From Rhynchopus sp. YZ270_cl-10 (lineage: Eukaryota), in the NCBI GenBank assembly GCA_964035575.1, contig OZ037834.1, positions 744,001 to 808,000 of the forward strand: 64,000 nt of DNA, in the 5' to 3' direction. The stretch's first letter is position 1. Every line of letters begins with the position of its first letter. Shown in pieces: positions 8,505 through 43,563 of this stretch. The translations under genes were made by a program, and so were the position numbers. The notes below the pieces were generated by a model. The model worked only from the letters and a program-made list of their open reading frames with translations, searched no databases and had not been told where the DNA came from.

Positions 8505-10766
8505 ATGTGTTTTGGCGCCTCCCCCACCACGCCACCGATGGTTGTGTGTGAAAACGTTGGATGCACGTCACCTGCAGAGCTGCAGTGTGGGTACTGCAAC
8601 GAGATGTACTTCTGCAGCAAGGATGACTGCTTCGACTTGCTGCACCGTGAACCCGACCGTGCCGTGCACCGCAAGTCTGTCAGTGCGTATGGGACAACAT
8701 CGATGTGTGCCCTGCATCGGGGCCAAGAGCTGCGCCTCATCTGTGAAGACCCTGCATGTGGAAAAGCCTTGCTCTGCACGTCCTGCGTCACGACGGAACA
8801 CGTGGGACACACCACAACCGACATCCCGCAGTACATGGAGCGTGTGCGCGGAACCCTCTGCACACATGAGGCAGATCTGAGGAAGCGACGCACTGCTGCA
8901 GAGGAGGAGTGCCGTGTGCTTGAGGGATTGGGTGTCAGGTGCAAAGACCATCTGCAGCAGACAGAGCGCGGGTACCTCTTTATGGCGGAGGGCTGGACAC
9001 GCAGCCACATTGAGAGCGAGGAGGAGGTGTCGAGGAAGCTCCACACACAGCTGTACAGTATTGCAGGTGACGTGTCTGCACTGAAGGCGTTCAGCGCACA
9101 TGCGGACGACGTGGTTGCTACGTGCAAGGATGTGTGCCAGCTTGGGCCTGATGTCGCACAGCGCATGATCACACAGTCGCAGGAGATCATGCACACCATA
9201 GCAAGCATCCCACCGAACATGAACCGCCACCGCCTTGTGGGTGTTGTCTCCCCACACGCAGAGCTTTCCGTGACACTGCCTGAGTGTGTTGCGAGCCTGC
9301 ACGACGACCTTGCCCAGAGTTTGCGAGTTGGCGTGTCTCTGCCTGTGGAGGGCTTTGATGGCGAGATGCACAAGGTTGAGGTGGGTGAGGAGGACACAGC
9401 CGCAGACTTGCATCGGAAGGTGGTGTCTGCAGTGGGGTTGCCTGAAGAGGTGGTGCACGTGAACTACAAGGGCGAAGCGATTGTGGAGGGAGAGGACATG
9501 TGGCCAGCGCCGCTGCGTGCAGACAGGATCGTGGTGACGAAGACAACGAAGTACGAAGCCACCACTGCACTGGAGGCATTGGGTGTGCCAGCACACACAG
9601 AGTCGCTGCAGCGTGTGGATGATGCAAAGGTGGCCTGCTTGCTTCTGCAGGCGGAGGTTGCGACTGCAATTCCCGACAGGTTCCTGTCCGGTGCAATATT
9701 CACAACACTCGACCTGACCGGCACGGACTTGAGCTTTGTTACGACTGTTGGTGAGAGCTTTCTTCGCAGCTGTCCGAACCTGACAACAGCCAACATCTCA
9801 GGCTTGACTGGCGTGACTGCGATTGGGACGCACTTCCTGAGTACGTGCACGTATCTGACAGAGCTTGTCGCTGACTTGAGCCATGTGACCGCCATACCAG
9901 ACTTCTTTCTCTACCAGTGCACGGCACTGACCAAGGTCGACGTCACCAGTTGGAACAGCGTGACCTCGATTGGGAACAGCTTCTGTCGCAGGTGCGCATC
10001 GTTGGAAAGCTTCGACCTGACTGGGTTCGTGAATGTCACTGCCATTAAGGATGGTTTCCTGCAGGAGTGTGCGTTGCTGAGACGCCTCGACCTCTCTTGC
10101 ATGAGCAGTCTCGCCGAAGTTGGTGACGCCTTTCTGAAGGACTGCCGGACACTGACAGACGTGGACGTGTCTGGTCTGCCCAGTCTGGGTGTGATCGGGA
10201 ACAGCTTCCTCGATGGCTGTTCGGCACTGAAAACACTCAACCTATGTGGCTTCGAAGGTGTGACCGCAATTGGCACTCACTTCGCTTACAATTGCACACG
10301 GCTGCAAGCAGTGAGCATTTCAGGCTTGAACAGCGTGGCTGCGATTGGGAAGTACTGCCTTGCCGGGTGCACGATGCTGAAGACACTTACGATCACTGGC
10401 TTGACAGCGCTGCCTCGTATCGAAGACTCCTTCGCTTCAAACTGTGTGTCGTTGACGTCACTGAACATTGCTGGTTTGCGCAGTGTGACCGTTCTTGGGG
10501 ACGACTTCCTGTCCGGGTGCACGAATTTACGAGGACACGACTTCACTGCCTTGTCAGGCGTCACTGCAGTTGGGGCGAACTGCCTTCAGGGGTGTGCGGA
10601 CTTGGAACTGTTGAAGGAGCTTCATCGTGTTCAGACGGAGGAGAAGAAGCTACAGGAGGAGCTTGAGCGCGTTAAGGAAAACAAGAAGCGGGAGCTGCCT
10701 GAGCGTATTCAGAAGGAGAAAATGAAGCAGCAACTTGAGCGTGTTCAGGAGGAGGAGGAGAAGTAG
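8505..10766 (+). CDS. B-box1/B-box2/coiled-coil/ubiquitin-like/BspA-type LRR protein, copy 1 (753 aa, soluble charged tail)
   Basis: Two Cys/His clusters (CENVGC..CGYC..FC..DC..LH..H; CALH..IC..AC..LCTSC..EHVGH). Ubl-like VEGFDGEMHKVEVGEEDTAADLHRKV..GLP..YKG. About 12 repeats of the form LDLSxLxxVTxIGxxFLxxCxxL. The ATG context ACGAAAATG is shared by all four copies. Confidence 0.85.
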   Translation: MCFGASPTTPPMVVCENVGCTSPAELQCGYCNEMYFCSKDDCFDLLHREPDRAVHRKSVSAYGTTSMCALHRGQELRLICEDPACGKALLCTSCVTTEHVGHTTTDIPQYMERVRGTLCTHEADLRKRRTAAEEECRVLEGLGVRCKDHLQQTERGYLFMAEGWTRSHIESEEEVSRKLHTQLYSIAGDVSALKAFSAHADDVVATCKDVCQLGPDVAQRMITQSQEIMHTIASIPPNMNRHRLVGVVSPHAELSVTLPECVASLHDDLAQSLRVGVSLPVEGFDGEMHKVEVGEEDTAADLHRKVVSAVGLPEEVVHVNYKGEAIVEGEDMWPAPLRADRIVVTKTTKYEATTALEALGVPAHTESLQRVDDAKVACLLLQAEVATAIPDRFLSGAIFTTLDLTGTDLSFVTTVGESFLRSCPNLTTANISGLTGVTAIGTHFLSTCTYLTELVADLSHVTAIPDFFLYQCTALTKVDVTSWNSVTSIGNSFCRRCASLESFDLTGFVNVTAIKDGFLQECALLRRLDLSCMSSLAEVGDAFLKDCRTLTDVDVSGLPSLGVIGNSFLDGCSALKTLNLCGFEGVTAIGTHFAYNCTRLQAVSISGLNSVAAIGKYCLAGCTMLKTLTITGLTALPRIEDSFASNCVSLTSLNIAGLRSVTVLGDDFLSGCTNLRGHDFTALSGVTAVGANCLQGCADLELLKELHRVQTEEKKLQEELERVKENKKRELPERIQKEKMKQQLERVQEEEEK

Positions 10767-10959
10767 GAGGAACTTCAGCATGTTCTGACCGCCTTGCACG
10801 CTGTCTCTGACGCAGGTGGAAGCGCCTCGCTCCACACACAGACAAACAGCTCTGCACCCCCACTCTGCATCACATCTGTCACCATAATACGGGGTTAGGT
10901 CCCTCTTACAGGAGGATCTTTGTCAAACAACGTTTTCCCCATCCCTTCCCTCCCCTTTA

Positions 10960-11113
10960 CACACATTGTCCACATGAGACAGTGCCTCGTGTGCACCCAG
11001 CAAGATGGCTGGCTGAACACACGTAATAATTGTTAGTTCTTGCCCTGTTTCGGTCACTTCATTGCATCCTGTTTTTAAGAGTGCACAACGCATTCATTGT
11101 TTTGTGACGTAGT
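10960..11113 (+). repeat. Conserved spacer unit of the LRR/dynamin array
   Basis: CACATTGTCCACATGAGACAGTGCCTCGTGTGCACCCAGCAAGA...GTTCTTGCCCTGTTT...AAGAGTGCACAACGCATTCATTGTTTTG also occurs at ~17740, 22410, 23120, 43805 and 44480, and partially at ~37220 and 40671. Confidence 0.9.
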
Positions 11114-11246
11114 TTGTGAAGCTTGTGAAGCTTGTGAAGCTTGTGAAGCTTGTGAAGCTTGTGAAGCTTGTGAAGCTTGTGAAGCTTGTGAAGCTTGTGA
11201 AGCTTGTGAAGCTTGTGAAGCTTGTGAAGCTTGTGAAGCTTGTGAA
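11114..11246. repeat. 9-bp tandem repeat (TTGTGAAGC)n, ~15 copies
   Basis: Direct reading of the sequence. Confidence 0.97.
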
Positions 11247-11693
11247 ACGTATGTGAGTTACCTCGGTGTGCAACGCATCCCACCCCTTTGTCTTGGCTTC
11301 ACTTTCCCTCCCCTCATTCCAACACAAGGACATCTCCCCTGTGCGTGCACCGCTTAGTGGTGTCCTTGTCACCTGTATCATACCCCACCCCATTACCTTA
11401 CCTGCTTGCATGCCCCTGAGAGATACGAAGGAAAGTAAATATTAAACATACTGTGGGTGTTATAACGTTATCTATAACGTTAATAACGTTATTAAAAGTG
11501 TTATTTTTGTTATTTTTTTTCCTATCTACTTCTAAGGGCCAGGAGTGGTTCGGAACGTGCCCAAAAACCTCTTTTTGTTGTAACCCCCCCAAAAAAATTT
11601 TTTTGGGGGGGTTACAACAAAAAAAATGCCCCAAAAACATGTTTTTTTCATATTTTTAAAAAATTCCAACAAAAAAAGTGTTATTGGAGTGTT

Positions 11694-12400
11694 CACGGCG
11701 TACGAAAGCGCTTGAAGCGTTTTTTTTTTTTCGGGGGGAAAAAAAAGCACTTTTCGCTTGATGAAAAAAAAAAGCGCTTTTTTTTTTTGTGTGGGGTTTT
11801 TGGTAAGGCGTACCTGTTCTCATGTTTTTTTTGATATTTTGGTTGTTTTTTTGCGTTGGGGTCAGCCCCGCCGCCAGGATTTTTGAGTTTTGAAAAACTT
11901 CTGTTGATGGTCCCAAAAAAAACCCCCTGCAATCGTAGCCTCCGGCAGAGAGACGAATATTACCCAAGCACAGTCAGAGTTCCTCCGAATCAGCGACATT
12001 CGCTCCTTCTCACTTCCTACCGGGCTGTTGTGCAGGAGGCATGTACATTGTACTCTTCCGTGGCCGGTGCAGGTGGCCGTGCACAAGCCGCAGTGGATGT
12101 CAGCCTTCTTATCAGTAAACAGCAGTCATGGCACCCAAAGGTTCCTGGCGAAGCCACGGTACGCAACATTTCTAAAAAATGTTGCCATAAAATGGCACTG
12201 CGTTCGTAATTTTTGTCAGAAAAATGCCCACAGCGGGAAATCGGCGACTCGATAAATTTGGTTTGGGTCACTTGTAGTGTGGACTTAAACCCCCTTAACA
12301 AACCCCTTCAGGAAAAAAAAGCGCTTTTTCCTAAAAATTCAAGCGCTTTTTTTTTTGAAAATTTCTCAAAAAACTCCTCGAAGCGCTTTCGTACGCCGTG
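11694..12400. mobile_element. Nested MITE, CAC..GTG ends, 6-bp TSD
   Basis: TIRs CACGGCGTACGAAAGCGCTT / AAGCGCTTTCGTACGCCGTG. TSD AGTGTT on both sides. Confidence 0.88.
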
Positions 12401-13922
12401 AGTGTTATTTGAGTGTTATTTTTAACATTTTTTTTTCACAAAAATGCCAAAAATGCCAGATTTTGCCAACAAAAATACCAAAAATGGCCGAAAGTTACAT
12501 ATTTTTACCTCCTACACGCCAAAAATCCACCAAAAATGTGTCCCGAGAAAAAATGAGTCCCAAAAATAGCCACTCTCAAAAAAGTTCCTATTTAAAAATT
12601 CTTCCAAAACATAACTTACAATTAGTAATTTTCATTGACGCGCAATTATTGACGAGCACAAAATCCTGTTACAGGCGTGCAATGTGTAACCGCTAAAGAC
12701 GCCTCCCTAAAGCGATGGTGGTAGGTGAAGGGGAGGGAGGAGGTGAAAAGTGCAAGGGGGGTCTGGAGGACCCCGGGAGAGCTTGTTAGACGTACCCGCG
12801 TAATGCAGGATACATAAAGACGCGTTCCTCCGTCCCAGATGGGTCATCGCTTGCACTTCTTCATTGAACCAACGACCTCCGTTGTTTTGGTCACCCCGGC
12901 TCGCTGATTTTGAGACCAAATATTTTCCCCAGCAATTTTTACCCACAAAAAATTGGGAATTTTTTGTTTTTGCTGCCTGATATGTTGTGCAGGTCTGGAG
13001 TGGAAGCGTGTAATTACAAATACTTAATTACACAGTTTCCACTCATTTTCCACAGAAAAATCCCAGACCTAGACCCATCACAAGAGCTTGTCAAGAGCTT
13101 GTAATAATCTACAAAACTCTAATAATACTCTAATAAATCACTCATAATTGATTTTAGTTTTGTTTTACACCACCCCCATAGACCACCCTAATTATTATGA
13201 AACTCTTAGTCAGTCACTGCTATAGCCATTTAACCCAGGGAGCATAGCGTGTGCAAGAAATTCGACTTTGGAAACCTTCTGGAAAGTCTGTCCTCTGCTC
13301 GCGGAGGACTAGGCACAAGAAAATATTGCGTTCCCCCAGAAACCAGTTTTTGTCACAGTAATTTTTGCCCAGGGCATGCTCTTGAAGCATGGCAGCTTGG
13401 TGTGAGAAGGGGCAGTGTGTTGTTTTGTTCTAGATTTCAACGGTTGTTAGAACGAGTCAAGTGGATGCTTATCTAAACACTGACTTTAGTACAGACCCGA
13501 GAGATCACACATGACTTTGAGGAAAGAACAAAGCAATGCATCTGTACCCGCACGCCAGGTTGTAGTTACTTCAGAATTTTCTTAAGTTTGCATGAAAGAG
13601 AAGGGGGCGAAACCTTTGTATACGTTTACGACGAAGGTAGTAGCCCAATGACAACCATGTGGTGGCTGTAATTCACATCCCTTAGAATTACCAGAATTCA
13701 GCCTTTGTTGAAGTAACGTGCATACTTGTATGTGCGTGTCACGCTTCTCCACCCTTATATGGGTGCACCGCTCGGTGAGCAGTGGTAACCCTTCTTGACT
13801 AGTGCAAACTTAAGAATTTTCTGCTGGAACTTACCAAAATCGATTTTCTTTCACCCCAAACACCCGCAACACCCCACCTGCTACTTCGGTAGCCTGTGTT
13901 GTTGGGAGTTGGTTCTCATGTT

Positions 13923-14152
13923 GATCCCCAGTGTTTTGCACTGCTTCTTCTGAGCCCAACGCTGTTTGGCCTGTCGACGTAATAAATACGAAGACAGGGG
14001 GGCGGTGCCAACAATTTTCCAATGATGTAACGTTTATCTGATTGATTTATCGGTTGATATACCTTGGCAATGCTTGTGTGCTACTTCATGCACACCAAGA
14101 AAGGTATATTGAACGGTACTTTCAAGCGATACTTCGTTATGTCATTGGGGGT
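13923..14152. repeat. Dispersed ~230-bp repeat with an inverted copy in the riboflavin-gene intron
   Basis: Reverse complement of ~58860-59079 (for example GACAGGGGGGCGGTGCCAACAATTTTCCAATGATGTAACG). Confidence 0.85.
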
Positions 14153-14702
14153 TATAAGGAGGCACGGCAAAAATGCGCATTTTTGATATTTTTGATATTT
14201 TTGGCAGAATTTTTTGGGCGTTTTGGCGTTTTTTAGGGGGGAAAAATAGTGAGGGGAGTTGGGTCCAGTCATAGGAAGTGTAGAGAATTTTTGAAAAATT
14301 CTTCCATTGGAATAAGGGTTTGCGGGCCTTGCCCTCTGAGGTGTTAGAAGGTTTGCAGGTTTGCAGGTTTAAGGAGGCGAATCTGTGTGGATGAGGGTTG
14401 AGGGTGCTTAGATGGGGTATGATACTGAGGTGCTTAAATGGTGGTTTTGTAGGTTACATAGTCACGAGACTGCCCTTGTATTAAAAGGGGGAGAGGGGAG
14501 ATGATAGGGGACAAGGCTACCAACCCGACTTAAACCGACTCAGTAGGGTCAGGTCGGACCGACCCAAACCTACCCAGCAAAAAGGTCCAAAAATAGATGT
14601 CAATTTTGAGACACTTTTTTTCCACTTTTTTCCTTAGGGATTTTTCCAGGTACTTAGCGAAGCGTTAGGGCGACTTAAGTCCCTTGGCCCCAGCGCCCTA
14701 TG

Positions 14703-14904
14703 CATAGTGTGCAGACGAACATTTTTGGACCGACGAACAAAATGTTCGTCGGTTTTGTTCGTCGATGTTCGTCGACGAACATCGACGAACAGGTCCCTGC
14801 CACAAGGGCAACCCACGACGAACATCGACGAACAACGACGAACAAAAATTTTTCCCCCCCCCACGACGAACATCGACGAACATTTTGTTCGTCTGCACAC
14901 TATG
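14703..14904. mobile_element. Nested MITE, CAT..ATG ends, 6-bp TSD, internal GACGAAC motifs
   Basis: TIRs CATAGTGTGCAGACGAACA / TGTTCGTCTGCACACTATG. TSD CCTATG on both sides. Confidence 0.88.
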
Positions 14905-16025
14905 CCTATGGGGCGCCTCCTCGTCGGGCCGTTAGGGCCCTCCGGTGGCCAGGTTCTTTCTCTGGGCTTAGAGGCTCGAAGTTCCCCGTCAGATTGGAGC
15001 TGGTGTGCTTTATGAGGCTCGCTCGTCTAGATTGAGGCTCGCTCGTCCGGATTGGGCTAGCTCGTCCGCCTTCGGCTAGACCCTCCGCCTTTGGGTGGGC
15101 TCGTGTATCTTCGTTATGTACGTACGGGTTCGATACTCTGGTTGGAGTGTGACAGCACGTCATTTCTTGAGCACGTTGGTAACACACGAAGTGCAATGGC
15201 GATAATGGAAAGATAGATGCCGGCATTGGTGAATTGCTGGAGTTCTGCACAGGAAGCCAGCATGACGTAGAATCACTGTGTGAACAAAATGACCGTATTT
15301 TGGTTGAAAATTTGACTTGAAATTTTTTTTCATAATTTGCCCAATCGAAGGTTTTCCTTGGATTTTTTGGGCCATTTTATGACGTACCACGCCCGATTTT
15401 GGGCGAAAAAAAAATTTTTTTTTTGGTCAAAAATCGCCTTGTATTACCACTGTATTGGTGTAGGCTCGTACAGAAGTGTGTTTTGTGTAACCACAGATGG
15501 TCAAAACACCCGATTTTTGCATTTTTTTTGCATTTTTTGGTGCCCAAAGACCCACCTCAGTGGTCGAAATTTTCCCGGAAAAAAATTTTTTTTTTTTGAG
15601 ATTTTTCGATTTTTTGACAAGGCGCTGGCCCATACAAAGTGCACTGGTGGTGCAGAAAATGGCTGGGGAATAAACTCTAGATGCTCAAAACAGCCCAATT
15701 CTTGCTTTTTTTGACTTTTTGGTCCCAGAAGGGTGCCTAGGGTGTAGTGAGCAGGCCTCAAAAACACTTGCGAAAAAAAAATTGGGATTTTTTTTTTTGA
15801 GATTTTTCCAAAAAATCGACTTGTCTGTGGTAAAAATCACGAAATTTTGGGTTCGCGGAACCGCGTTTTAGACCCCCCTAGATGCTCAAAAGTGCCAAAT
15901 TTTGCTTTTAATGGCCTCAAATCGTCGAAATTAGCCCTATATAGGGGCAAAAAAAAAAAATTCGAGGGTCTAGGTATGGAGAGCGAGCACCTTAGAAGGA
16001 GATCGGACCAAAAAAGGTACCCTAA

Positions 16026-16141
16026 GGAGGCACGGCACTTTTGTGGAATTTTGTGGAATTTTGTGGAATTTTTTATAAGGGGAAAAAGTAGAAGTCGAGT
16101 TTTTGAAATTCCACAAAATTCCACAAAAGTGCCGTGCCTCC
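16026..16141. mobile_element. PIF/Harbinger-type MITE (TAA TSD)
   Basis: TIRs GGAGGCACGGCACTTTTGTGGAATTTTGTGGAATTT and its reverse complement, with TAA on both sides. A further left end TAA|GGAGGCACGGCA lies at 14158. Confidence 0.8.
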
Positions 16142-17891
16142 TAACGGTGTTATAACGTTATCGATAACGTTATAACACTTTTATTTTTTGTTATAACGTT
16201 ATTGGATAACGTTATAACAAAAATAACGTTATAACAAAAATAACGTTATACATAACGTTATAACACCCACAGTATGACTAAAGACGTCCTTTCAACAGCC
16301 CAGTGGAAGTGACTCCGTGAGTTAAAGGAGGGGCAAAATGAAAAAAAAACAACCATTTTTTGCGGCCACGGTTTTTCGCAAAACGAACCCCGCAAAATGG
16401 CCTTGTCAGAACCACCAATTTGGGTACTTTTCTGCCACTCTGATCACAGAAACGTCACAAAAAAAATCACAAGGAGGGAAATGCCGGGGGGAAAGCGGAA
16501 AACCCATGTTATTTTTTTGTGTTTTTATTGTAATTCGCGTTTCAGATTTGGTGTATTTTTTTTTTTTGGAAAATTTCTGTGTTTTGTTGTAATGTTTTTT
16601 GTGATTTATTGTGATTGGCCCAGCTGCTCCCCCTACACACTACCACGTGTATCTGACGACGACGACCCAGTGCAGCACCAACCGGACCATAGGCTTTTCT
16701 CAGCACGGTGATGCGTGAAGGGGCCAGATGGGGAGAACGTAGAGGGCAAGATCAAGGAAGTGAAGGAGAAGTTTTGGGCTTGTGAACTCTGCTTCAACGA
16801 CTTGGAGAAGATGTTCTGGATCAACAAAGCAACTCTGCCTGCCAAGGCTGACATGTCAACGTTTTGTTCCTTTCTTCTGTTATTTTTTTTTGCTTTGTTT
16901 TACTTTTCCCTATTCTACGACCTTCCTTCACCCTAACGGAACTTCAATTATATTTCTAAATCAAAGTTACTTCTGCAAGCTGTTGTGTAAGTTGTCGAGA
17001 AAGTTAGCCAAGTTGAAGTGAAGAAGTACCCACTCCTGCAGAAGCAAAAAAATGTACATTCATGAACCCCTGAGAAGCCCGTAAGTTTCTGTTCTCTTGT
17101 TCCCGCCTGCGTCAGCTGAGTCCTTTGTAGTGACACGTTTCTTTTTCAGATGAGATGGCAACATTGAAGATGAGAGCTCCTGGTGCAGACGTCAACCAAA
17201 CACAGGTGTGGGTCACAAAAATCCTTGTTTTCTTCCGACGGTGTGGTCAAATCCAAGGTGTTTGGCTAGCGACACGGCACTGTTTATGGGCACAATGTCA
17301 TAGCTTTTTTTGAAATCGACGGATATGCCGTAACGCTGTTCACCGTGGAGGTGTGCGTGCTCGAACTGTGCTGCAACAAAAAGTACCCCAGATCACCCCA
17401 ACATTTTTTTTCTCTATGTTAACACGAGCGGATTGGTTGATCTCTCAAACCTTTCACTTACAAATACTGTTTCCTTGAGCAAGAGAAAACCGAATAGTCG
17501 GAACGTAGTGAGCGCACGGAAACCCGAATAATATAGCCAACGGTTAATCGCCTGATACCGACCATTGTCTCCCTCCCTTTAAAACACTTGCCCTGCGTTC
17601 AACGAAAGGTGTCCTGTTGGTGACGCCGTTTCTAAGGTTGACAACACCACTGTTGTGTTCGTCAGCTGTGGGTAGGAAGCAGTGCGAAAGGAGGATCTTT
17701 GCCAAACCAACGTTTCCCCCAATCCCTCCCTCCCCTTTACACACATTGTCCACATGAGACAGTGCCTCGTGTGCACCCAGCAAGACGTCTGGATGAGTAC
17801 ACGTAATAATTGTTAGTTCTTGCCCTGTTTCTGTCACTTCATTGCATCATGTTTTTAAGAGTGCACAACGCATTCATTGTTTTGTGACGTA

Positions 17892-18019
17892 GCTTGCGAA
17901 GCTTGCGAAGCTTGCGAAGCTTGCGAAGCTTGCGAAGCTTGCGAAGCTTGCGAAGCTTGCGAAGCTTGCGAAGCTTGCGAAGCTTGCGAAGCTTGCTAAG
18001 CTTGTGAAGCTTGTGAAGC
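17892..18019. repeat. 9-bp tandem repeat (GCTTGCGAA)n, ~14 copies, at the site paralogous to 11114
   Basis: Direct reading. One-base variant of the 11114 unit at the same position in the spacer repeat. Confidence 0.97.
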
Positions 18020-33632: not shown

Positions 33633-34420
33633 TATCTATCTAAACAAGTACGTGTTTTATTTGTTTGGTATTTTTTGTGGTTTTTTTTTGGTGTGTGACC
33701 AGGTGCCCAGACCCACGCAGTGGCACATGACCTCAAGTGTGAGTGACCCACACACGAGGGAGTGACTGTGTACCTGTGTACCTACCAAGTCGCATGACGA
33801 CGGGTACAATAAGTACCAGCCGGATATTGTGGACAAGGAGTCTCGGGAGGAGAGAGGCGAACCCGGCGGAGGGTTGAAGAGATGCCAGTGATGGAGGTTC
33901 CATCACTGCCAGCCTTACATTGTTCTTGATTCGGTTTTTCCACACCTCCACACCACCATCCACCCAGCCACCAACGCCAATAAAAAAAACCCCAAAGTGC
34001 TATTTTGTGCTATTTGGGGTCATCAGCCACACCAGTTTTGTTTTGTTTTTTTGTTTTTTTTTGGGGAGGGGTGAAAGTTTTGTGGTTTTTATGAAAAGGA
34101 TTGTTGGGGCATCCAGGTACAGATTTGACAGACGCAAACCCGCAAGGGGAAGCAACCGGCTGGGATGTCACGAAACTGACAGAACAGCCGGTTTTCGACC
34201 ACTTTTTTTTGTCACTTTTTGACGACTGGTCACAGCGTGCTCTACTCTTATAAGGGGTAGACGGCGTCAGTGCTATGCACACGCGTCACACACACGCTTT
34301 TTCAAACATTGCTTGTTTTGTTCACCACATCTTCACAATAAAAAGCGGCCTTGCCCCCCCTCTGTTTCCATTGCGACCCTGTTGTCCCAACACACCACAC
34401 TCTCACAGACAACTTGGAAG

Positions 34421-36808
34421 ATGTCGGGAAAGGGAGTGGCCGTGCCAGAGGAGGTGGTTAAATGTTTGGAGTCAAGTGAGAAGCTCAGCAAAGTGGTGCG
34501 TCAATGCAAGGACGAGGGGTTTCACCTGGAAGGCTACGACTTTTCCGGTGTGAACAACACAGTGCGAATTGTTCTCACCGGCCCGCAGTCTGCAGGGAAG
34601 TCCTCCTTGCTCGATGCAATGCTTGGCTTTCCATTCTCCCTGATCCTCAGCGGCACAGGCACGCGTCGCCCGATCCACCTCGTGTGCGAAACCAAGCCCG
34701 AGGGCGATGAGGAACTTTCAGTGGGGGGTACGAGTTACGCGTCACGCTCAGAGATGCAGGCGGCGGTGAAGGCTGCGAACGGGTCTGTGTTTTCGGAGGA
34801 GAAGCTCGACGTCCGCATCTGTTCCAAACATGTCGCGAACATTGTTGTGGTCGACCTGCCCGGGTTGAGATCTGTGGGAGATGCGGATGAATTGGAGCTG
34901 ATTAAAAAAATCACGAAAGACCACCTGGCGGAGGAGTCCAACTATATTGTGTGTGTGATTGGCGCACCAAATGATGCAGCTTCGTGGGGAGAATTGAACG
35001 ACACCATGGGTCCGTTCCTCAAGGCCAACGCAGGGTGGGAGAAGCGAGTCATAATCATCGCCAACAGGTTTAACCTGCGGATGAACGAGAACAAGACCCC
35101 TGCTCTGTGGAACGAGTATTTCCAGAATATGCGCAACTCCGGGACGGTGTTCGTGACAACCCTCGGGTACAGCAAGGACAAGTTATCTGAGGAAAGCTGG
35201 CAGGAGGACCTCGGCACTGTGCAGGAGAGGGACTCCAAGTACCTGAAGGATTTCATGGACAGCAACAACCTCTTGCACAACTCCGATTGGGACAAAGCAA
35301 ACTGCGAGATGATGGGTTTGGACAGAATTCTCGCCCGGATCAACAACCTGCTAAGGGAGGGAGCGCTCTCGAAGGCTCAGCACAACCTGAGGGATGCGAA
35401 CGAACTGACGAAGGACCTGAAAGCAAGCCAGCAGCGCATCCAGGACCAGCTGGCTGCAAACACGGAGGAGCAGATCGTATCTTTGATGGAGAGGTACGCG
35501 AAGGAGCTGGCCACGCACCTTCTTGCACTGCACGACAACAGAAGCATCTATGACAACTCGCGCTGCAAGAAGAACGATTTTGCGAGCTCGCCTCGCAAGA
35601 AGTACACCCCGAGCCACCTTCCTGAAAACCTCAAGTGCAGCTTTTGGGATGACATGGAGAAGGTTTCCTGCGACAGCAACATTCTGATTCCACACAAGCA
35701 GGCGGAGGAGAAGATGTCCTCACAAGAGTTGAAGGACAAGCTGAATATGAAGACAGCAGGGAAGGAAAATGCCCAGCGCGTCCTAATCATGGCACAGTGG
35801 TACATTCTGAGCGCGAAAGTGGAGAAAGTGTCTCGTGAAGACATCACAACGAAGGCGAGCGCAACGAACCAGCAGAGGAGACCAGACGTGAACAAACTGG
35901 TGTGTAGCGGTGCTCGGAACCGTGTGGCGGAGCTAGGGGATATTGTCATCCCGTGGATGGCAGAGATGCTGCACCAAATGGAGGTGACGTACTACAACTT
36001 CGTTGAGGGGCACCTGCTGTCAGAGGAAGGCAGTTTCGCAAGGATGGCGAACCCAGAAGCCGCGAGTTTCCACGAAGCCCTGAGGGACGCGATTTTCAAC
36101 ACCGTCTTGAGATCGAAGACAGGATCTTTTGCCGCTCGCTTCGACAAGGAGGTGAATAACTGTCGCAAGGTCATGTCCCTCGACGCTGTAGAACGGGAGA
36201 TGCTCGGCACGTTCATGGGGAACGGAAATAATGCAATCGTCAACCCGCAGGGATCAGCCAATTCTGGGCCGAATCAGCCATTGCCAGGATCTTTTGCAGA
36301 TGCTGGAACGAAGTTGCAGGCGTCGGGGATTGTCTTCGAAACCAACGAACGTCGTGCTGCCGTGCTTGCGCTGTTGCGCGCTGCGGACTCCAGCCAGGGC
36401 ATTGTGAACAACCAGATCAATGCGGATGACTGGGTGTTGGCGGGGAACTTGAGTGCCATCAGCAGACCTCTGTTCGAAGTCACGACTGATTACGTGGAAT
36501 ATATGTCCCAGCGACTGTACGAGTCCTCTGCCAGGTACGTGTGCAGTTGGATGGAGTTGGAGTACTTTGCGAATGTGATGCCGCTGTTCACAGGCGATGA
36601 TGACAACACGATCATAGGTGCGGTGAACAGCGCCGCCACTAAATTTATCCAAGCACATCGTGAACACCTGCTTCCCATGTTCGGTGTGCAAGAGGACAAA
36701 CTGCGCAACCAGCTGGAGCTCCTTGAATCAGCACTGGAGGCTGCCCGGCACCATTCCTCCGTGCAAACTACCCTGCTAGCTTCCGCAACGGCACACAGGG
36801 CTCGCTAA
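34421..36808 (+). CDS. Dynamin-related GTPase, copy 2 (795 aa)
   Basis: Paralog of 28922-31327 with the same G motifs and a divergent stalk-tip segment. Confidence 0.88.
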   Translation: MSGKGVAVPEEVVKCLESSEKLSKVVRQCKDEGFHLEGYDFSGVNNTVRIVLTGPQSAGKSSLLDAMLGFPFSLILSGTGTRRPIHLVCETKPEGDEELSVGGTSYASRSEMQAAVKAANGSVFSEEKLDVRICSKHVANIVVVDLPGLRSVGDADELELIKKITKDHLAEESNYIVCVIGAPNDAASWGELNDTMGPFLKANAGWEKRVIIIANRFNLRMNENKTPALWNEYFQNMRNSGTVFVTTLGYSKDKLSEESWQEDLGTVQERDSKYLKDFMDSNNLLHNSDWDKANCEMMGLDRILARINNLLREGALSKAQHNLRDANELTKDLKASQQRIQDQLAANTEEQIVSLMERYAKELATHLLALHDNRSIYDNSRCKKNDFASSPRKKYTPSHLPENLKCSFWDDMEKVSCDSNILIPHKQAEEKMSSQELKDKLNMKTAGKENAQRVLIMAQWYILSAKVEKVSREDITTKASATNQQRRPDVNKLVCSGARNRVAELGDIVIPWMAEMLHQMEVTYYNFVEGHLLSEEGSFARMANPEAASFHEALRDAIFNTVLRSKTGSFAARFDKEVNNCRKVMSLDAVEREMLGTFMGNGNNAIVNPQGSANSGPNQPLPGSFADAGTKLQASGIVFETNERRAAVLALLRAADSSQGIVNNQINADDWVLAGNLSAISRPLFEVTTDYVEYMSQRLYESSARYVCSWMELEYFANVMPLFTGDDDNTIIGAVNSAATKFIQAHREHLLPMFGVQEDKLRNQLELLESALEAARHHSSVQTTLLASATAHRAR

Positions 36809-37880
36809 AATACCGCCCAAAAACCCGCACGGTGGCTCTTTCTGGCAAAATTTTTCCACGCTATGTACAAATTCCTTAACAAATCTCGGAGATATTGTCT
36901 ACTTTATTTTGTGTAATCTCCAGAAGGAATTTCGAAAACGCGGCTCAACATTATTACACACAAGTGAGATAAAGTACTTTATCATCGCAACACTCGTTTT
37001 TACAGCAAAATCCGCAACATGCAACACGTTATATCCCCATGAGAGAAAATATCGTACAATGCTATTGCATTCTGAAAAGCGCACTTCACACAACTCGGGA
37101 GCTGTGGTTCCGAGTTGCATAAAATTAATTGGTGCACTCGCTGTGCTCGTGCACCAAAGCGGAACCATAGCTCCCTCGTGATGTAAAGTGCACCTTACAT
37201 CATGCAATGAATAGTTATTAGTTCTTGCCCTGTTTCCATCAATCCTTTTTTTAAGAGTGCACAACGCATTCGTTGTTTTGCAACGTATCTTGTAAAGTTT
37301 GTGAAGCGCGTGTGAGTTACCTTGGTGTACAAGGCGTGAAAGCGCGGTTTCGAAACGTTCAATTCTGGCAATTCTGTCAGACGATAAAAAATTATCAACT
37401 TCTCATTTTCTGAGATAAAAAAAACAAAAAAGAATGACATCGGTTACTGGGGGGGTTATTTCTAAAAACCTGTCCCTGTTTCTCATGTTTGGAAAATGAA
37501 AGTTGTCAATAAATTTGCATTGGGAGTTTAAAAAAACAGTGGAGATTGCACAACTGTGGCAACACAACCGAGGCAACTACACGACTCCGACATTTTGTTT
37601 TTTTGGCCCCCTTTTTTTTACCAGGGGGTTTCAACTGACAGAACAGCCGGTTTTCGACCACTTTTTTTTGTCACTTTTTGACGACTGGTCACAGCGTGCT
37701 CTACTCTAATGAGGGGTAGACGACGTCAGTGCTATGCACACGCGTCACACACACGCTTTTTCAAACACTGCTTGTTTTGTTCACCACATCTTCACAATAA
37801 AAAGCGGCCTTGCCTCCCCTCTGTTTTCCATCGCGACCCTGTTGTCCCAACACACCACACTCTCACAGACAACTTGGAAG

Positions 37881-40661
37881 ATGTCGGGAAAGGGAGTGGC
37901 CGTGCCAGAGGAGGTGGTTAAATGTTTGGAGTCAAGTGAGAAGCTCAGCAAAGTGGTGCGTCAATGCAAGGACGAGGGGTTTCACCTGGAAGGCTACGAC
38001 TTTTCCGGTGTGAACAACACAGTGCGAATTGTTCTCACCGGCCCGCAGTCTGCAGGGAAGTCCTCCTTGCTCGATGCAATGCTTGGCTTTCCATTCTCCC
38101 TGATCCTCAGCGGCACAGGCACGCGTCGCCCGATCCACCTCGTGTGCGAAACCAAGCCCGAGGGCGATGAGGAACTTTCAGTGGGGGGTACGAGTTACGC
38201 GTCACGCTCAGAGATGCAGGCGGCGGTGAAGGCTGCGAACGGGTCTGTGTTTTCGGAGGAGAAGCTCGACGTCCGCATCTGTTCCAAACATGTCGCGAAC
38301 ATTGTTGTGGTCGACCTGCCCGGGTTGAGATCTGTGGGAGATGCGGATGAATTGGAGCTGATTAAAAAAATCACGAAAGACCACCTGGCGGAGGAGTCCA
38401 ACTATATTGTGTGTGTGATTGGCGCACCAAATGATGCAGCTTCATGGGGAGAATTGAACGACACCATGGGTCCGTTCCTCAAGGCCAACGCAGGGTGGGA
38501 GAAGCGAGTCATAATCATCGCCAACAGGTTTAACCTGCGGATGAACGAGAACAAGACCCCTGCTCTGTGGAACGAGTATTTCCAGAATATGCGCAACTCC
38601 GGGACGGTGTTCGTGACAACCCTCGGGTACAGCAAGGACAAGTTATCTGAGGAAAGCTGGCAGGAGGACCTCGGCACTGTGCAGGAGAGGGACTCCAAGT
38701 ACCTGAAGGATTTCATGGACAGCAACAACCTCTTGCACAACTCCGATTGGGACAAAGCAAACTGCGAGATGATGGGTTTGGACAGAATTCTCGCCCGGAT
38801 CAACAACCTGCTAAGGGAGGGAGCGCTCTCGAAGGCTCAGCACAACCTGAGGGATGCGAACGAACTGACGAAGGACCTGAAAGCAAGCCAGCAGCGCATC
38901 CAGGACCAGCTGGCTGCAAACACGGAGGAGCAGATCATATCTTTGATGGAGAGGTACGCGAAGGAGCTGGCCACGCACCTTCTTGCACTGCACGACAGCA
39001 GAAGCATCGATGACAACTCGCGCTACACGAAGAACGAGTTCGCGAGCCCGCCTCGCAAGAAGTACACCCCGAGCCACCTTCCTGCAAACCTCAAGTGCAG
39101 CTTTTGGGATGACATGGAGAAGGTTTCCTGCGACAGCAACATTCTGATTCCACACAAGCAGGCGGAGGAGAAGATGTCCTCACGAGAGTTGAAGGACAGG
39201 CTGAATATGGAGACGGCAGGGAAGGAAAATGCAGAGCGCGTTCTAATCATGGCACAGTGGTACATTCTGAGCGCGAAAGTGGAGAAAGTGACTCGTGAAG
39301 ACATCTGGGCGAGCGCAACGAACCAGCAGAGGAGACCAGACGTGAACAAACTGGTGTGTAGCGGTGCTCGGAACCGTGTGGCGGAGCTAGGGGATATTGT
39401 CATCCCGTGGATGGCAGAGATGCTGCACCAAATGGAGGTGACGTACTACAACTTCGTTGAGGGGCACCTGCTGTCAGAGGAAGGCAGTTTCGCAAGGATG
39501 GCGAACCCAGAAGCCGCGAGTTTCCACGAAGCCCTGAGGGATGCGATTTTCAACACCGTCTTGAGGTCGAAGACAAAATCTTTTGCTGAGCGCTTCGGCA
39601 AGGAGGTGAATAACTGTCGCAAGTTCATGTCCCTCAACGCTGTAGAACGGGAGATGCTCGGCACGTTCATGGGGAACGGAAATAATGCAATCGTCATCCC
39701 GCAGGAACCAGCCAAGTATGAGCCGAGTGAGCAATTGCAAGCAGCGTTCAAAGATCCTGTTACGAAGTTGCAGGCGTCGGGGTCCGCAGTGCAGGAGGAG
39801 AAAAAGACTGACTTCGAAAACAACCAACGTCGCGCTGCCGTGCTTGCGCTGTTGCGCGTTGGGGACTCCAGCCAGACCATTGTGAACAAGCAGATCAATG
39901 CGGATGACTGGGTGTTGTCGGGGAACTTGAGTGCCATCAACAGAGCTCTGGTCGAAGTCACGACTGATTACGTGGAAAATGTGTCCCAGCGACTGTACGA
40001 GTCCTCTGCCAGGTACGTGTGCAGTTGGATGGAGTTGGAGTACTTTGCGAATGTGATGCCACTGTTCACAGAGGATAATGACAACACGATCATAGGTGCG
40101 GTGAACAGCGCCACCACCAAATTTATCCAAGGACATAATGGAAAACTGCTTTCCATGTTCGGTGTGCAAGAGGACAAACTGCGCAACCAGCTGGAGCTCC
40201 TCGAATCAGCACTGAAGGCTGCCCTGCACCATTCCTCTGTGCAAACTGCCCTGCTAGCTTCCGGAATGGCATACAAGGCTCAGCAACAGGAGGAGCTTCA
40301 GCGTGCCCTGCAGGTGAAGCGTAGATTGCAGGAGGAACTTGATCGTGTTAAGCTTCAGAAGGAGAAGGAGAAAAAGCAGCAAGAGGCCCTGAAGGAGAAG
40401 CGAAGACTGCAGGAGGAGCTTCAGAAGGAGAAGGAGAAAAAGAAGCAGCAGGAGCTTGAGCGTGTTCAGAAGCAGAAAAAGAAGCAGGAGCTTCAGCGTG
40501 CTCAGGAGGAGATTAATCGTGCCCAGAAGGAGGTGCACGATATCAAGAGTAAGAATCTTCCTACATTAAGACCCCCCGCGAAGAGAATACTGCAGGAGGA
40601 GCTTGCACGTGCTGTGAAGGCGCTTGAGCTTGCCCAGAAGGCGAAAAGGGACCTTGAGTGA
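37881..40661 (+). CDS. Dynamin-related GTPase, copy 3 (926 aa) with extra E/K/Q-rich coiled-coil tail
   Basis: Paralog whose frame continues past the stop position of copies 1 and 2 into a 126-aa charged tail (40281-40661). Confidence 0.88.
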   Translation: MSGKGVAVPEEVVKCLESSEKLSKVVRQCKDEGFHLEGYDFSGVNNTVRIVLTGPQSAGKSSLLDAMLGFPFSLILSGTGTRRPIHLVCETKPEGDEELSVGGTSYASRSEMQAAVKAANGSVFSEEKLDVRICSKHVANIVVVDLPGLRSVGDADELELIKKITKDHLAEESNYIVCVIGAPNDAASWGELNDTMGPFLKANAGWEKRVIIIANRFNLRMNENKTPALWNEYFQNMRNSGTVFVTTLGYSKDKLSEESWQEDLGTVQERDSKYLKDFMDSNNLLHNSDWDKANCEMMGLDRILARINNLLREGALSKAQHNLRDANELTKDLKASQQRIQDQLAANTEEQIISLMERYAKELATHLLALHDSRSIDDNSRYTKNEFASPPRKKYTPSHLPANLKCSFWDDMEKVSCDSNILIPHKQAEEKMSSRELKDRLNMETAGKENAERVLIMAQWYILSAKVEKVTREDIWASATNQQRRPDVNKLVCSGARNRVAELGDIVIPWMAEMLHQMEVTYYNFVEGHLLSEEGSFARMANPEAASFHEALRDAIFNTVLRSKTKSFAERFGKEVNNCRKFMSLNAVEREMLGTFMGNGNNAIVIPQEPAKYEPSEQLQAAFKDPVTKLQASGSAVQEEKKTDFENNQRRAAVLALLRVGDSSQTIVNKQINADDWVLSGNLSAINRALVEVTTDYVENVSQRLYESSARYVCSWMELEYFANVMPLFTEDNDNTIIGAVNSATTKFIQGHNGKLLSMFGVQEDKLRNQLELLESALKAALHHSSVQTALLASGMAYKAQQQEELQRALQVKRRLQEELDRVKLQKEKEKKQQEALKEKRRLQEELQKEKEKKKQQELERVQKQKKKQELQRAQEEINRAQKEVHDIKSKNLPTLRPPAKRILQEELARAVKALELAQKAKRDLE

Positions 40662-41080
40662 GGCTTTGCGAGTTCTTGCCCTGTTTCTATCACATTATTG
40701 CATCTTGTTTTTAAGAGTGCACAACGCATTCATTGTTTTGTAACGTAGCTTGTGAAGCGCAGCTCCCCAAAGGAACAATAACAAAAGTAAAGCGCAAAAT
40801 ACCTCCTTTGTATCTCACCTGCCCCCCTCACACCCTGACGACAGCGACTGTGTCAGCCACTTTGCCTTCCCGTGCCCACCACGTTCGGACACTGCACACA
40901 ACCCACTTTTGAGACCCTTCTTCACAGCTGTCTGTGCTGCTGGTGGTGCATCACCACACAACCTCTGTTGCTGGGACAGGCATCACCTTTGTTCAAGTTT
41001 CTTTGTGTCCACAACACCACACCACACAGGTCCTTCCTTCTCTCCCTACCCCTTCCCACCCCTCCTTCCACAAAACGAAA

Positions 41081-43563
41081 ATGGTTGTCGTAAATGGCGC
41101 GTCTCCCACCGCACCACCGATGGCTGAGTGCGGCAACACTGGATGCACGTCACCTGCAGAGCTGCAGTGTGGGTACTGCATCGATATGTACTTCTGCAGC
41201 AAGGATGCCTGCTTCGACGCTCTGCACCGTGAACCCGACCGTGCCGTGCACCGCAAGTCTGTCAGTGCGTATGGGACAACATCGATGTGTGCCCTGCATC
41301 GGGGCCAAGAGCTGCGCCTCATCTGTGAAGACCCTGCACGACGGAACACGTGGGACACACCACAACCGACATCCCGCAGTACATGGAGCGTGTGCGCGGA
41401 ACCCTCTGCACACATGAGGCAGATCTGAGGAAGCGACGCACTGCTGCAGAGGAGGAGTGCCGTGTGCTTGAGGGATTGGGTGTCAGGTGCAAAGACCATC
41501 TGCAGCAGACAGAGCGCGGGTACCTCTTTATGGCGGAGGGCTGGACACGCAGCCACATTGAGAGCGAGGAGGAGGTGTCGAGGAAGCTCCACACACAGCT
41601 GTACAGTATTGCAGGTGACGTGTCTGCACTGAAGGCGTTCAGCGCACATGCGGACGACGTGGTTGCTACGTGCAAGGATGTGTGCCAGCTTGGGCCTGAT
41701 GTCGCACAGCGCATGATCACACAGTCGCAGGAGATCATGCACACCATAGCAAGCATCCCACCGAACATGAACCGCCACCGCCTTGTGGGTGTTGTCTCCC
41801 CACATGCAGAGCTTTCCGTGACATTGCCTGAGTGTGTTGCAAGCCTGCACGACGACCTTGCCCAGAGTTTGCGAGTTGGTGTGTCTCTGCCTGTGGAGGG
41901 CTTTGATGGCGAGATGCACAAGGTTGAGGTGGGTGAGGAGGACACAGCCGCAGACTTGCATCGGAAGGTGGCGTCTGCAGTGGGGTTGCCTGAAGAGGTG
42001 GTGCACGTGAGCTACAAGGGCGAAGCGGTTGTGGAGGGAGAGGACATGTGGCCAGCGCCGCTGCGTGCAGACAGGATCGTGGTGACGAAGACAACGAAGT
42101 ACGAAGCCACCACTGCACTGGAGGCATTGGGTGTGCCAGCGCACGCAGAGTCGCTGCAGCGTGTGGATGATGCAAAGGTGGCCTGCTTGCTTCTGCAGGC
42201 GGAGGTTGCGACTGCAATTCCCGACAGGTTCCTGTCCGGTGCAATATTCACAACACTCGACCTGACCGGCACGGGCTTGAGCTTTGTTACGACTGTTGGT
42301 GAGAGCTTTCTTCGCAGCTGTCCGAACCTGACAACAGCCAACATCTCAGGCTTGACTGGCGTGACTGCGATTGGGATGCACTTCCTGAGTGGGTGCTCGT
42401 ATCTGACAGAGCTTGTCGCTGACTTGAGCCACGTCACCGCCATACCAGACTTCTTTCTCTACCAGTGCACGGCACTGACGAACGTCGACGTCACCAGTTG
42501 GAACAGCGTGACCTCGATTGGGAACAGCTTCTGTCGCAGGTGCGCATCGTTGGAAAGCTTCGACCTGACTGGGTTCGTGAATGTCACTGCCATTGAGGAT
42601 GGTTTCCTGCAGGAGTGTATGTCGCTGAGACGCCTCGACCTCTCTTGCATGAGCAGTCTCGCCGAGGTTGGTGGTGGCTTTCTGAAGGACTGCCGGACAC
42701 TGACAGACGTGGACGTGTCTGGTCTGCCCAGTCTGGGTGTGATCGGGAACAGCTTCCTCGATGGCTGTTCGGCACTGAAAACACTCAACCTATGTGGCTT
42801 CGAAGGTGTGACCGCAATTGGCACTCACTTCGCTTACAATTGCACACTGCTGCAAACAGTGAGCATTTCAGGCTTGAACAGCGTGGCTGCGATTGGGAAG
42901 TGCTGCCTTGCCGGGTGCACGATGCTGAAGACACTTACGATCACTGGCTTGACAGCGCTGCCTCGTATCGAAGACTCCTTCGCTTCAAACTGTGTGTCGT
43001 TGACGTCACTGAACATTGCTGGTTTGCGCAGTGTGACCGTTCTTGGGGACGACTTCCTGTCCGGGTGCCCGAATTTACGAGGACACGACTTCACTGCCTT
43101 GTCAGGCGTCACTGCAGTTGGGGCGAACTGCCTTGAGGGGTGTGCGGACTTGGGACCGTTGAAGCAGCTTCAGGAACAGGAAGCGAAAAAGAAGCAGGTG
43201 GAGAAGAAGCAACAGGAGGAGCTTGAGCGTGTACAGAAGCAGAAGAAACTTGAGTGTGCCCCGAAGGAGAAGAAGAAGCAGGAGGAGTTGCAGGAGAAGC
43301 AGCTGTACCTTCAGAAGCAGCGGGAGCGGAAACTGGCAATGAAGCAGGCAAACTTTCAGATGTGGGTGCGCATGGCGGCGCGCCAGTGCGCCAGGAAGGA
43401 GACTCAGTTGACACCTCAGGAAGAGGAGAAGAACAAGAAGGAGGAGCAGCAGCAGCGGCACAAACAGGAACAGAAGCGTAAGCAGAGGAAGCACCAAGAA
43501 CGCAAGCACAAAGAACGGAGCCGGGATCCGCAGGAATTTTGCAAATGGGGACAGACCAAATAA
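41081..43563 (+). pseudogene. B-box/coiled-coil/Ubl/LRR copy 4, frameshifted by a 34-bp deletion in B-box 2 (or an N-truncated isoform from ATG 41383)
   Basis: TGTGGAAAAGCCTTGCTCTGCACGTCCTGCGTCA, present in copies 1-3, is missing at 41338/41339 (CA microhomology). The downstream frame stays open to TAA 43563. Confidence 0.75.

What the first reader, a model, noticed from the sequence alone, without database searches (positions are those of the whole stretch)
8505..43563. Interleaved array of RING-less TRIM-like LRR proteins and dynamin GTPases: candidate cell-autonomous immunity locus
Seen: the order is LRR-LRR-LRR-DYN-DYN-DYN-LRR. The copies are recent near-identical duplicates that share spacer DNA, with variable C-termini, one broken copy and dense transposon insertions. 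The LRR genes have an unusual B-box1/B-box2/coiled-coil + ubiquitin-like + BspA-type LRR architecture and no signal peptide. Established: B-box/coiled-coil proteins (TRIMs), LRR sensors and dynamin-superfamily GTPases (Mx, GBPs) are core animal cell-autonomous defence factors and evolve by birth-and-death in clusters. Inference: this may be a convergent sensor/effector cluster in a protist, acting against viruses or intracellular bacteria.
Basis: partly seen in the sequence, partly recalled or inferred. Interest (0 to 1): 0.7.

Follow-up and report, generated by a model that had tools for sequence, protein, structure and literature searches.

The report
Hypervariable LRR genes beside triplicated dynamin
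Four recent copies of a large, fast-diversifying family of leucine-rich-repeat genes, which likely make binding receptors, sit next to three copies of an unusual dynamin that is not of the antiviral Mx type in what is likely a marine diplonemid protist; the two are probably neighbours through local duplication rather than partners in one immune system.

Summary
The array is real: LRR-LRR-LRR-DYN-DYN-DYN-LRR, with copy-specific tails at single-copy read depth. The LRR genes (two zinc modules, coiled coil, ubiquitin-like domain, 12 BspA-type repeats; no RING, no signal peptide) are a divergent outpost of a family with at least 63 further clusters on 19 other contigs, probably in the same genome. 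In that family, repeat positions 17, 18 and 21 are only 21-26% identical between paralogs that are 94% identical in their N-terminal halves, and the window copies also vary preferentially there. This fits a diversified binding surface. The dynamin is not Mx or GBP. It belongs to a divergent protist clade next to class C (DRP5/Dlp), has a degenerate G4 motif, and its nearest named relatives are diplonemid. No dynamin of this type was found on the other LRR contigs, so co-clustering is not supported. All four LRR copies have lost the family's C-terminal cap; one is frameshifted early, two late, one has a stop in the tail. DYN3 shares tail and spacer DNA with the LRR copies, which points to local recombination. 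Verdict: an interesting diversified LRR family; the sensor/effector pairing is weakly supported.

The parts
8505..10766 (+). LRR1: zinc module 1 (aa 15-55), B-box2 (68-102), coiled coil, ubiquitin-like domain (about 275-346), 12 BspA-type 25-aa repeats (400-699), short Lys/Glu/Gln tail ended by a TAG with the tail frame continuing behind it
   Evidence: TAG on a read contig with 0 differences
18326..20740 (+). LRR2: 8-nt deletion in the last repeat (near 20394) shifts the tail to an Ala/Ser/Gly spacer with a hydrophobic end (19-aa mean hydropathy 2.6)
23600..25993 (+). LRR3: same 8-nt deletion (near 25653), hydrophobic end (2.9), 15-nt in-frame deletion in the ubiquitin-like domain
28922..31327 (+). 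DYN1: 801-aa dynamin-related protein; G1 GPQSAGKS, G2 Thr81, G3 DLPG, G4 read as NRFN; GTPase, BSE and helical stalk predicted; no Dynamin_M, GED or PH hit
34421..36808 (+). DYN2: 795-aa copy, most divergent in the stalk insert
37881..40661 (+). DYN3: 926-aa copy with a Lys/Glu/Gln tail (40283-40661) related in DNA to the LRR1 and LRR4 tails
   Evidence: D19; score 115, best of 300 codon shuffles 45
41081..43563 (+). LRR4: broken by a 34-nt deletion at 41337/41338 in B-box2; the rest of the frame, with a long Lys/Glu/Gln tail, is open
10910..11446 (+). Shared spacer element, first of 8 copies (cores at 11077, 17857, 22529, 23240, 37253, 40713, 43914, 44588); follows LRR genes, DYN2 and DYN3 and precedes the unrelated gene at 44919
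11447..16276 (.). 4.8-kb insertion bounded by inverted repeats, with nested repeats and no transposase hit; likely a non-autonomous DNA transposon
   Evidence: (I5)

Best explanation
The LRR genes are a local, recently triplicated-plus-one outpost of a large family whose repeat surface is hypervariable and which likely acts as a set of cytosolic binding receptors, and they probably came to flank three copies of an unrelated, class-C-related dynamin by local duplication and recombination rather than to work with it. Shown: architecture, family size and clustering, hypervariable positions, dynamin clade, shared tail and spacer DNA. Inferred mechanism of the LRR proteins: the constrained B-box2/coiled coil oligomerises, the variable face of the repeats binds diverse foreign or symbiont ligands, and the ubiquitin-like domain (no terminal Gly-Gly) would link bound targets to proteasome or autophagy machinery; there is no RING, so they would not be ligases on their own. 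Inferred history: an LRR gene that lost the family's C-terminal cap and a dynamin gene came to share one 3' module (Lys/Glu/Gln tail plus spacer); tandem duplication and gene conversion then made the array, and the copies are now partly decaying, with two re-framed into predicted tail-anchored forms. Inferred role of the dynamin: membrane fission or remodelling as in DRP5/Dlp (cytokinesis, phagosome), possibly with altered nucleotide specificity.
For: 63 of the 120 listed LRR hits form one family on 19 contig lengths, with 22, 13 and 9 on three contigs; clusters are clades by contig. Read loose ends in the runs that hold the window translate to motifs of those relatives, so they are probably the same genome. 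Positions 17/18/21: entropy 3.7-3.8 bits, 27-32% aromatic at 18 and 21 (259 repeats from 59 of 63 proteins); identity 22/105, 27/104, 24/104 between nearest paralogs with 94% N-terminal identity, against 47-90% at other variable positions (33 of 38 pairs). Window copies: 8 of 22 variable LRR sites at those positions, 11% expected, p 0.002; pN/pS there 2.75, p 0.04. B-box2 plus coiled coil: 0 nonsynonymous, 4 synonymous changes. Dynamin: only 3 proteins at E<1e-30 among 1.84 billion representatives: itself, Flectonema, Lacrimia; groups with class-C-motif proteins against Mx-like, DNM1 and Mgm1 at 100/98. DYN3 tail shares DNA with LRR tails. 47 of 63 relatives end in a cap motif that the window copies lack; 0 of 63 have the Lys/Glu/Gln tail.
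Against: No ligand, expression or localisation evidence. The same repeat positions are variable and aromatic in bacterial BspA proteins too (811 repeats), so part of the signal is a property of the fold. Against whole-gene synonymous sites the window ratio is 2.1, p 0.06, and whole-domain pN/pS is about 1, which relaxed selection also gives. The dynamin triplication beside the LRR copies, with pN/pS 1.3-1.4 in its distal stalk and insert (not significant), and the shared tail are what a coupled system could also show. The genome itself was not available, so absence of co-clustering rests on protein databases.
Confidence: 0.6

Rival explanations
1. Coupled sensor/effector locus: the LRR proteins detect an intracellular microbe and recruit the dynamin, for example through the shared charged tail, to attack its membrane.
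For: Both families are duplicated side by side; DYN3, LRR1 and LRR4 share a helical tail; LRR surface diversified; Dictyostelium DlpA is reported on nascent bacteria-containing phagosomes (PMC8565484, passages); diplonemids carry Holosporaceae and Rickettsiaceae symbionts (10.1101/719211, passages).
Against: Not Mx or GBP; no such dynamin detected on the 19 other LRR contigs; the tail is missing from DYN1 and DYN2, re-framed in LRR2 and LRR3, cut short in LRR1, and LRR4 is broken; in D. papillatum neighbours are co-transcribed in long mixed clusters anyway (PMC10161547, passages).
Confidence: 0.13
2. Neutral gene graveyard: a duplication-prone region in which redundant copies of both genes drift and decay, with no receptor role for these copies.
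For: All four LRR copies are altered at the 3' end or broken; overall pN/pS 0.75 for LRR and 0.90 for DYN, neither different from 1; LRR2 versus LRR3 tails show no clear constraint in either frame (8 syn/24 nonsyn and 5/30 codons); repeat-filled spacers.
Against: Changes concentrate at the family's hypervariable positions; all 16 zinc ligands, the coiled coil and the GTPase motifs are intact; five tail indels between LRR2 and LRR3 before the hydrophobic end region are mostly multiples of three and the new frame stays open despite 18% divergence.
Confidence: 0.2
3. Symbiont management rather than defence: the LRR repeat type is shared with Holosporales proteins, the host family binds or mimics symbiont effectors, and the dynamin controls division of a symbiont or its compartment.
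For: The best hit outside the family is a Holosporales LRR protein (E 1e-41) with the same 25-aa consensus, 52% identical to family member P0062 over 271 aa; LRR genes lie beside T6SS effectors in diplonemid symbionts; a dynamin-like protein controls symbiont division in Angomonas (PMC13109935, search listing only).
Against: One bacterial sequence, host unknown; repeat similarity is inflated by periodicity; direction of transfer untested; no evidence that this organism has a symbiont.
Confidence: 0.07

Closest known systems
RING-less TRIM-like proteins (TRIM29, TRIM44, TRIM66; B1-B2-CC, PMC2533329 passages)
   Same: Two zinc modules with 8 conserved Cys/His each, followed by a long predicted coiled coil and a C-terminal binding domain; the family profile matches a TRIM5 B-box/coiled-coil structure (5va4, E 2.5e-4).
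   Different: No RING; a ubiquitin-like domain and BspA repeats instead of SPRY, NHL or PHD; not a metazoan; descent from TRIMs not shown; dimer not tested.
Dictyostelium B-box + FNIP proteins such as AreA (PMC4554924 passages)
   Same: Protist, RING-less B-box protein with a C-terminal repeat domain; AreA binds the autophagy factor Atg101.
   Different: FNIP rather than BspA repeats; no ubiquitin-like domain reported in the passages read; hypervariability not reported there.
BspA-like (TpLRR) expansions of Trichomonas vaginalis and Entamoeba (PMC2843621 abstract)
   Same: Large protist family of LRR_5 proteins with structural diversity among paralogs.
   Different: Those are candidate surface proteins of mucosal parasites; here the repeats sit behind B-boxes and a ubiquitin-like domain, without signal peptide, in a probably free-living marine protist.
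Class C dynamins (plant DRP5A/ARC5, Dictyostelium DlpA-C)
   Same: Only Dynamin_N is detected; the stalk profile hits 9 of 16 proteins with the class C motif and the GTPase tree joins the two groups.
   Different: Forms a separate clade (100/98) with a degenerate G4 (NRFN, NYFN, NRVN); the class C label rests on a recalled motif, not on a named reference.
Mx and Mx-like dynamins (PMC11789081 passages)
   Same: Same GTPase-BSE-stalk fold; gene duplication.
   Different: Monophyly with fungal Mx-like proteins is rejected; no Dynamin_M or GED hit; Mx is not the best match by sequence or fold.

Membership tests
TRIM (RBCC) | N-terminal RING domain | tested here: not met
   No RING hit in the window ORFs at E up to 1 or in 53 family members at E 0.05.
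TRIM (RBCC) | B-box2 | tested here: met
   zf-B_box E 3e-5, above cut-off; 29 of 53 members; 8 ligands conserved in 88-100% of rows.
TRIM (RBCC) | B-box1 before B-box2 | tested here: inconclusive
   C6H2 module with 8 nearly invariant ligands; ANCHR-like B-box in 17 of 53 but below cut-off; weak MYND/MetAP1-type matches too.
TRIM (RBCC) | Coiled coil after the B-boxes | tested here: met
   Helices 107-154 and 172-211 in the model, pLDDT about 60-79.
TRIM (RBCC) | Antiparallel coiled-coil dimer | not tested
BspA/TpLRR (LRR_5) proteins | Tandem LRR_5 repeats with a BspA-type fold | tested here: met
   LRR_5 E 1e-23 to 1e-30, 53 of 53 members; top fold matches 4fs7 and 4gt6.
BspA/TpLRR (LRR_5) proteins | Surface location (signal peptide or membrane anchor) | tested here: not met
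   No hydrophobic N-terminus in the window copies (sequence) and in 61 of 63 relatives; hydrophobic ends in LRR2 and LRR3 only, from a frameshift. Hydropathy scan, not a signal-peptide predictor.
Dynamin superfamily | Dynamin_N GTPase with G1-G3, followed by BSE and helical stalk | tested here: met
   E 5e-20; full-length fold matches to OPA1, dynamin, Drp1, E 1e-13.
Dynamin superfamily | Canonical G4 (T/N)KxD | tested here: not met
   NRFN in the window and in both diplonemid relatives. Canonical form and its role in guanine specificity are recalled.
Mx / Mx-like (class B) | Monophyly with Mx-like proteins; Dynamin_M and GED | tested here: not met
   AU p 8e-9 (3 diplonemid rows) and 0.0017 (15-row clade) with 9 fungal Mx-like rows, one named Mx by its source; animal Mx was not in the tree; no Dynamin_M or GED hit.
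Class C dynamins (DRP5/Dlp) | Grouping with DRP5/Dlp and shared stalk | tested here: inconclusive
   Sister group in an unrooted tree (100/98) and stalk similarity, but a separate clade, long branches, and no named DRP5/Dlp sequence among the rows.
Guanylate-binding proteins | GBP domain | tested here: not met
   No GBP hit at E up to 1.
Sensor/effector immune cluster | Recurrent co-clustering of the two families | tested here: not met
   No such dynamin among ENA proteins other than the window's, against 63 LRR clusters on 19 contig lengths. Indirect; the assembly was not available.
Sensor/effector immune cluster | Induction on infection and physical interaction | not testable with these tools
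   Needs challenge RNA-seq and co-immunoprecipitation.

The most novel reading that the evidence does not exclude
Diplonemids have built a cytosolic immune-receptor repertoire of dozens to hundreds of RING-less TRIM-like proteins whose Holosporales-type LRR face is nearly randomised between paralogs, and at this locus one branch has been coupled, through a shared coiled tail, to an undescribed class-C-related dynamin that attacks symbiont or virus compartments. The receptor-repertoire half alone has about 0.3; the full coupled system is scored here.
Probability: 0.12. Interest if true: 0.85.

Novelty: new variant of a known kind. Interest (0 to 1): 0.48.

Why it matters
How free-living protists recognise intracellular bacteria and giant viruses is largely open. 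A large, clustered LRR family with three near-randomised positions per repeat gives named candidate receptors and named residues to test, in a lineage known to host Holosporaceae and Rickettsiaceae. The dynamin marks a protist clade beside class C with a changed G4 motif, which I did not find described. The array itself, as a unit, matters less: it is mainly an example of local duplication and tail exchange between unrelated genes.

Tried and rejected
Whole genome not held, so no direct genome-wide scan. No RNA holder listed. Complex prediction for the B-box/coiled-coil dimer was not available. The profile search with three diplonemid dynamins missed even the window's own and the Lacrimia protein, so it is a weak negative. 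Atlas: the dynamin's hits (0.98) are unnamed dynamin clusters and do not give a class; the LRR N-terminal half gave only leads under 0.9 (B-box + DUF285 clusters, 0.82-0.83). Viral fold search gave giant-virus dynamins at 10-14% identity, no sign of viral origin. The gene at 44919 is not the donor of the tail (E 3.5). Haplotype artefact rejected by contig depth. Whole-domain pN/pS never exceeded 1 significantly. No earlier scan notes for this genome. Supplement of PMC10280142 was unreadable and 7 of 19 files of PMC11789081 were not searched; either could already name this dynamin clade. Tree rows left out: P0165, P0251, P0209, P0316 (no G1 match); P0136, P0267, P0162 (long branches) and redundant rows; 18 of 63 short or ubiquitin-LRR-only relatives.
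Full report
Setting. All 14 long genes of the window lie on the + strand, as in the unidirectional clusters of Diplonema papillatum (PMC10161547, passages). The only full-length relatives of the dynamin are from the diplonemids Flectonema neradi (33%) and Lacrimia lanifica (32%). I therefore infer a diplonemid; the flanking genes were not tested for lineage. No genome was held.

Observation. The order LRR-LRR-LRR-DYN-DYN-DYN-LRR is confirmed. Copies are 93-98% identical in DNA. A spacer core occurs 8 times from 11077 to 44588 and follows genes of both families. Read contigs argue against an assembly artefact: in run X1 unique flanks are at 117-120x, the tails of LRR1, LRR4 and DYN3 at 119x, 110x and 110x, the collapsed dynamin core at 276x and the LRR core at 358-395x; X2 gives the same pattern, X3 is noisier. 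One of these runs may be the source of the assembly, so this tests the assembly, not the range of the locus. Repeats fill the spacers (summed depth up to 1e5) but also the spacers outside the array; coding density is 49% inside and 41% outside. Of 120 spacer ORFs of 85 aa or more, 74 were scanned; the only transposase hit is a hAT fragment outside the array.

LRR protein. The model (mean pLDDT 76) shows two zinc modules, long helices at 107-154 and 172-211, a beta-grasp at about 277-346 and a well-predicted repeat solenoid whose best fold matches are bacterial BspA-type proteins. Sixteen Cys/His ligands are conserved in 88-100% of rows. In 53 aligned members Pfam finds LRR_5 in 53, zf-B_box in 29, FERM_N in 27, ANCHR-like B-box in 17 and ubiquitin in 15, and no RING. 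The family profile matches ubiquitin and a TRIM5 B-box/coiled-coil fragment.

Family. Of 379 hits, 120 were listed; 63 of these form one family at 31-50% identity on 19 contig lengths, with 22, 13 and 9 clusters on three contigs. Among the 63, 47 have module 1, 50 B-box2, 54 the coiled coil, 52 the ubiquitin-like domain and 61 the repeats. Clusters are clades by contig and the window copies are a long separate branch (48 rows). In the runs that hold the window at 99% or more, loose ends at the LRR gene translate, by eye, to motifs found in 8 and 17 of the 63 relatives; the family is therefore probably in the same genome.

Hypervariable face. The repeat is 25 residues, L-x-x-L-D-L-S-x-L-x-x-V-T-x-I-G-x17-x18-F-L-x21-x-C-x-S. 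Positions 17, 18 and 21 have 3.7-3.8 bits of entropy and 18 and 21 are 32% and 27% aromatic. Between nearest paralogs (33 of 38 pairs had repeats; mean N-terminal identity 94%) these positions are 21-26% identical, position 22 is 47%, other variable positions 62-90% and the framework 90-100%. Among the four window copies 8 of 22 variable LRR residues fall on those three positions (11% expected, p 0.002); pN/pS there is 2.75 against LRR synonymous sites (p 0.04) and 2.1 against the whole gene (p 0.06). B-box2 plus coiled coil has 0 nonsynonymous and 4 synonymous changes; module 1 and the whole LRR domain are near 1. Against over-reading: bacterial BspA repeats are variable and aromatic at the same positions (811 repeats), repeat shuffling and gene conversion were not modelled, and no DNA of the relatives was available.

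Tails. 47 of 63 relatives end in a cap motif; none has a Lys/Glu/Gln tail. The window copies lack the cap. LRR1 and LRR4 carry a Lys/Glu/Gln tail; LRR1's is cut by a TAG that the reads confirm. LRR2 and LRR3 share an 8-nt deletion; the old tail can still be read in the next frame, and the new frame runs into T-rich DNA and ends in a hydrophobic stretch. Their tails differ at 44 of 245 sites against about 2% in the gene body, without clear constraint in either frame. DYN3's tail is related in DNA to LRR1's (score 115; best of 300 codon shuffles 45) and LRR4's (71; 44); DYN1 and DYN2 stop before it. DYN3 runs through a shortened spacer straight into LRR4's 5' region. The simplest reading is exchange of one 3' module between neighbours; the direction is unresolved.

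Dynamin. G1-G3 are intact; G4 reads NRFN. The model (pLDDT 75) matches OPA1, dynamin and Drp1 over the full length at 11-15% identity, Mx lower in the list. Among 1.84 billion representatives 284 pass E 0.001, 12 pass 1e-10 and 3 pass 1e-30. A stalk profile built without the class-C-motif row hits 9 of 16 proteins with that motif and 0 of 31 Dynamin_M-bearing proteins at E 0.01; built from the three diplonemid rows alone it hits 1 of 16 and 0 of 31. In the GTPase tree (37 rows) the window protein lies in a 15-row clade (100/98) that includes Chromera and unnamed protist-like rows, joined to the class-C-motif clade and apart from Mx-like, DNM1, dynamin and Mgm1 rows; grouping with Mx-like rows is rejected. 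The class C motif is recalled; long branches are a caveat. Class C members act in cytokinesis and organelle division, and DlpA is seen on nascent phagosomes (PMC8565484, PMC11789081, PMC10280142, passages). pN/pS rises from 0.46 in the GTPase to 1.3-1.4 in the insert and distal stalk, not significant.

Coupling. No protein of this dynamin type was found on any of the other LRR contigs (the last is weak; relatives hidden inside a 50% cluster cannot be fully excluded). With one LRR copy beyond a dynamin block, shared 3' DNA and polycistronic gene order, adjacency needs no functional link. I give coupling about 0.13.

Comparison and novelty. Each part has precedent: RING-less B1-B2-CC proteins in animals and B-boxes in protists (PMC2533329, passages), B-box + FNIP in Dictyostelium (PMC4554924, passages), BspA expansions in Trichomonas (PMC2843621, abstract). 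The best hit outside the family is a Holosporales protein with the same repeat, and diplonemid symbionts carry LRR genes (10.1101/719211, passages). I found no description of this family or this dynamin clade in eight searches; the library lacks most subscription papers and two supplements were unread or partly read. Rating: new variant of a known kind, interest 0.48, carried by the diversified LRR family and the dynamin clade rather than by the pairing.

Noticed in passing
window 54346-57954 and 59470-60186 (+): Riboflavin fusion: DHBP synthase, GTP cyclohydrolase II and four lumazine synthase domains, with two more lumazine domains in the next ORF across a repeat-filled gap. If spliced, up to six lumazine domains in one chain, close to a single-chain version of the usual pentamer (pentamer recalled).
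   Followed up: no
window 4212-6644 (+): PDZ domain (weak) in front of an Iml2/TTC39 TPR protein.
   Followed up: no
P0070 (Holosporales bacterium, CAO5674230.1): Bacterial LRR protein with the same 25-aa repeat consensus as the host family, 52% identical to P0062 over 271 aa; possible host-symbiont transfer.
   Followed up: partly
P0132-P0145, P0149, P0169, P0172, P0217, P0235: A clade of divergent protist dynamins beside class C with G4 changed to NRFN, NYFN or similar; includes diplonemid, Flabellula and Chromera proteins.
   Followed up: partly
window 11447-16276: 4.8-kb element with terminal inverted repeats and nested insertions; its part 13919-14152 recurs inverted at 58860-59083.
   Followed up: partly
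window 2082-2462 (-): hAT transposase dimerisation-domain fragment.
   Followed up: no
window 50224-53418 (+): MORN-repeat protein with a hydrophobic N-terminus and C-terminal hydrophobic stretch.
   Followed up: no
P0032: Family member with an extra, well-conserved ubiquitin domain (E 1e-17) and a duplicated ubiquitin-like segment in place of zinc module 1.
   Followed up: no
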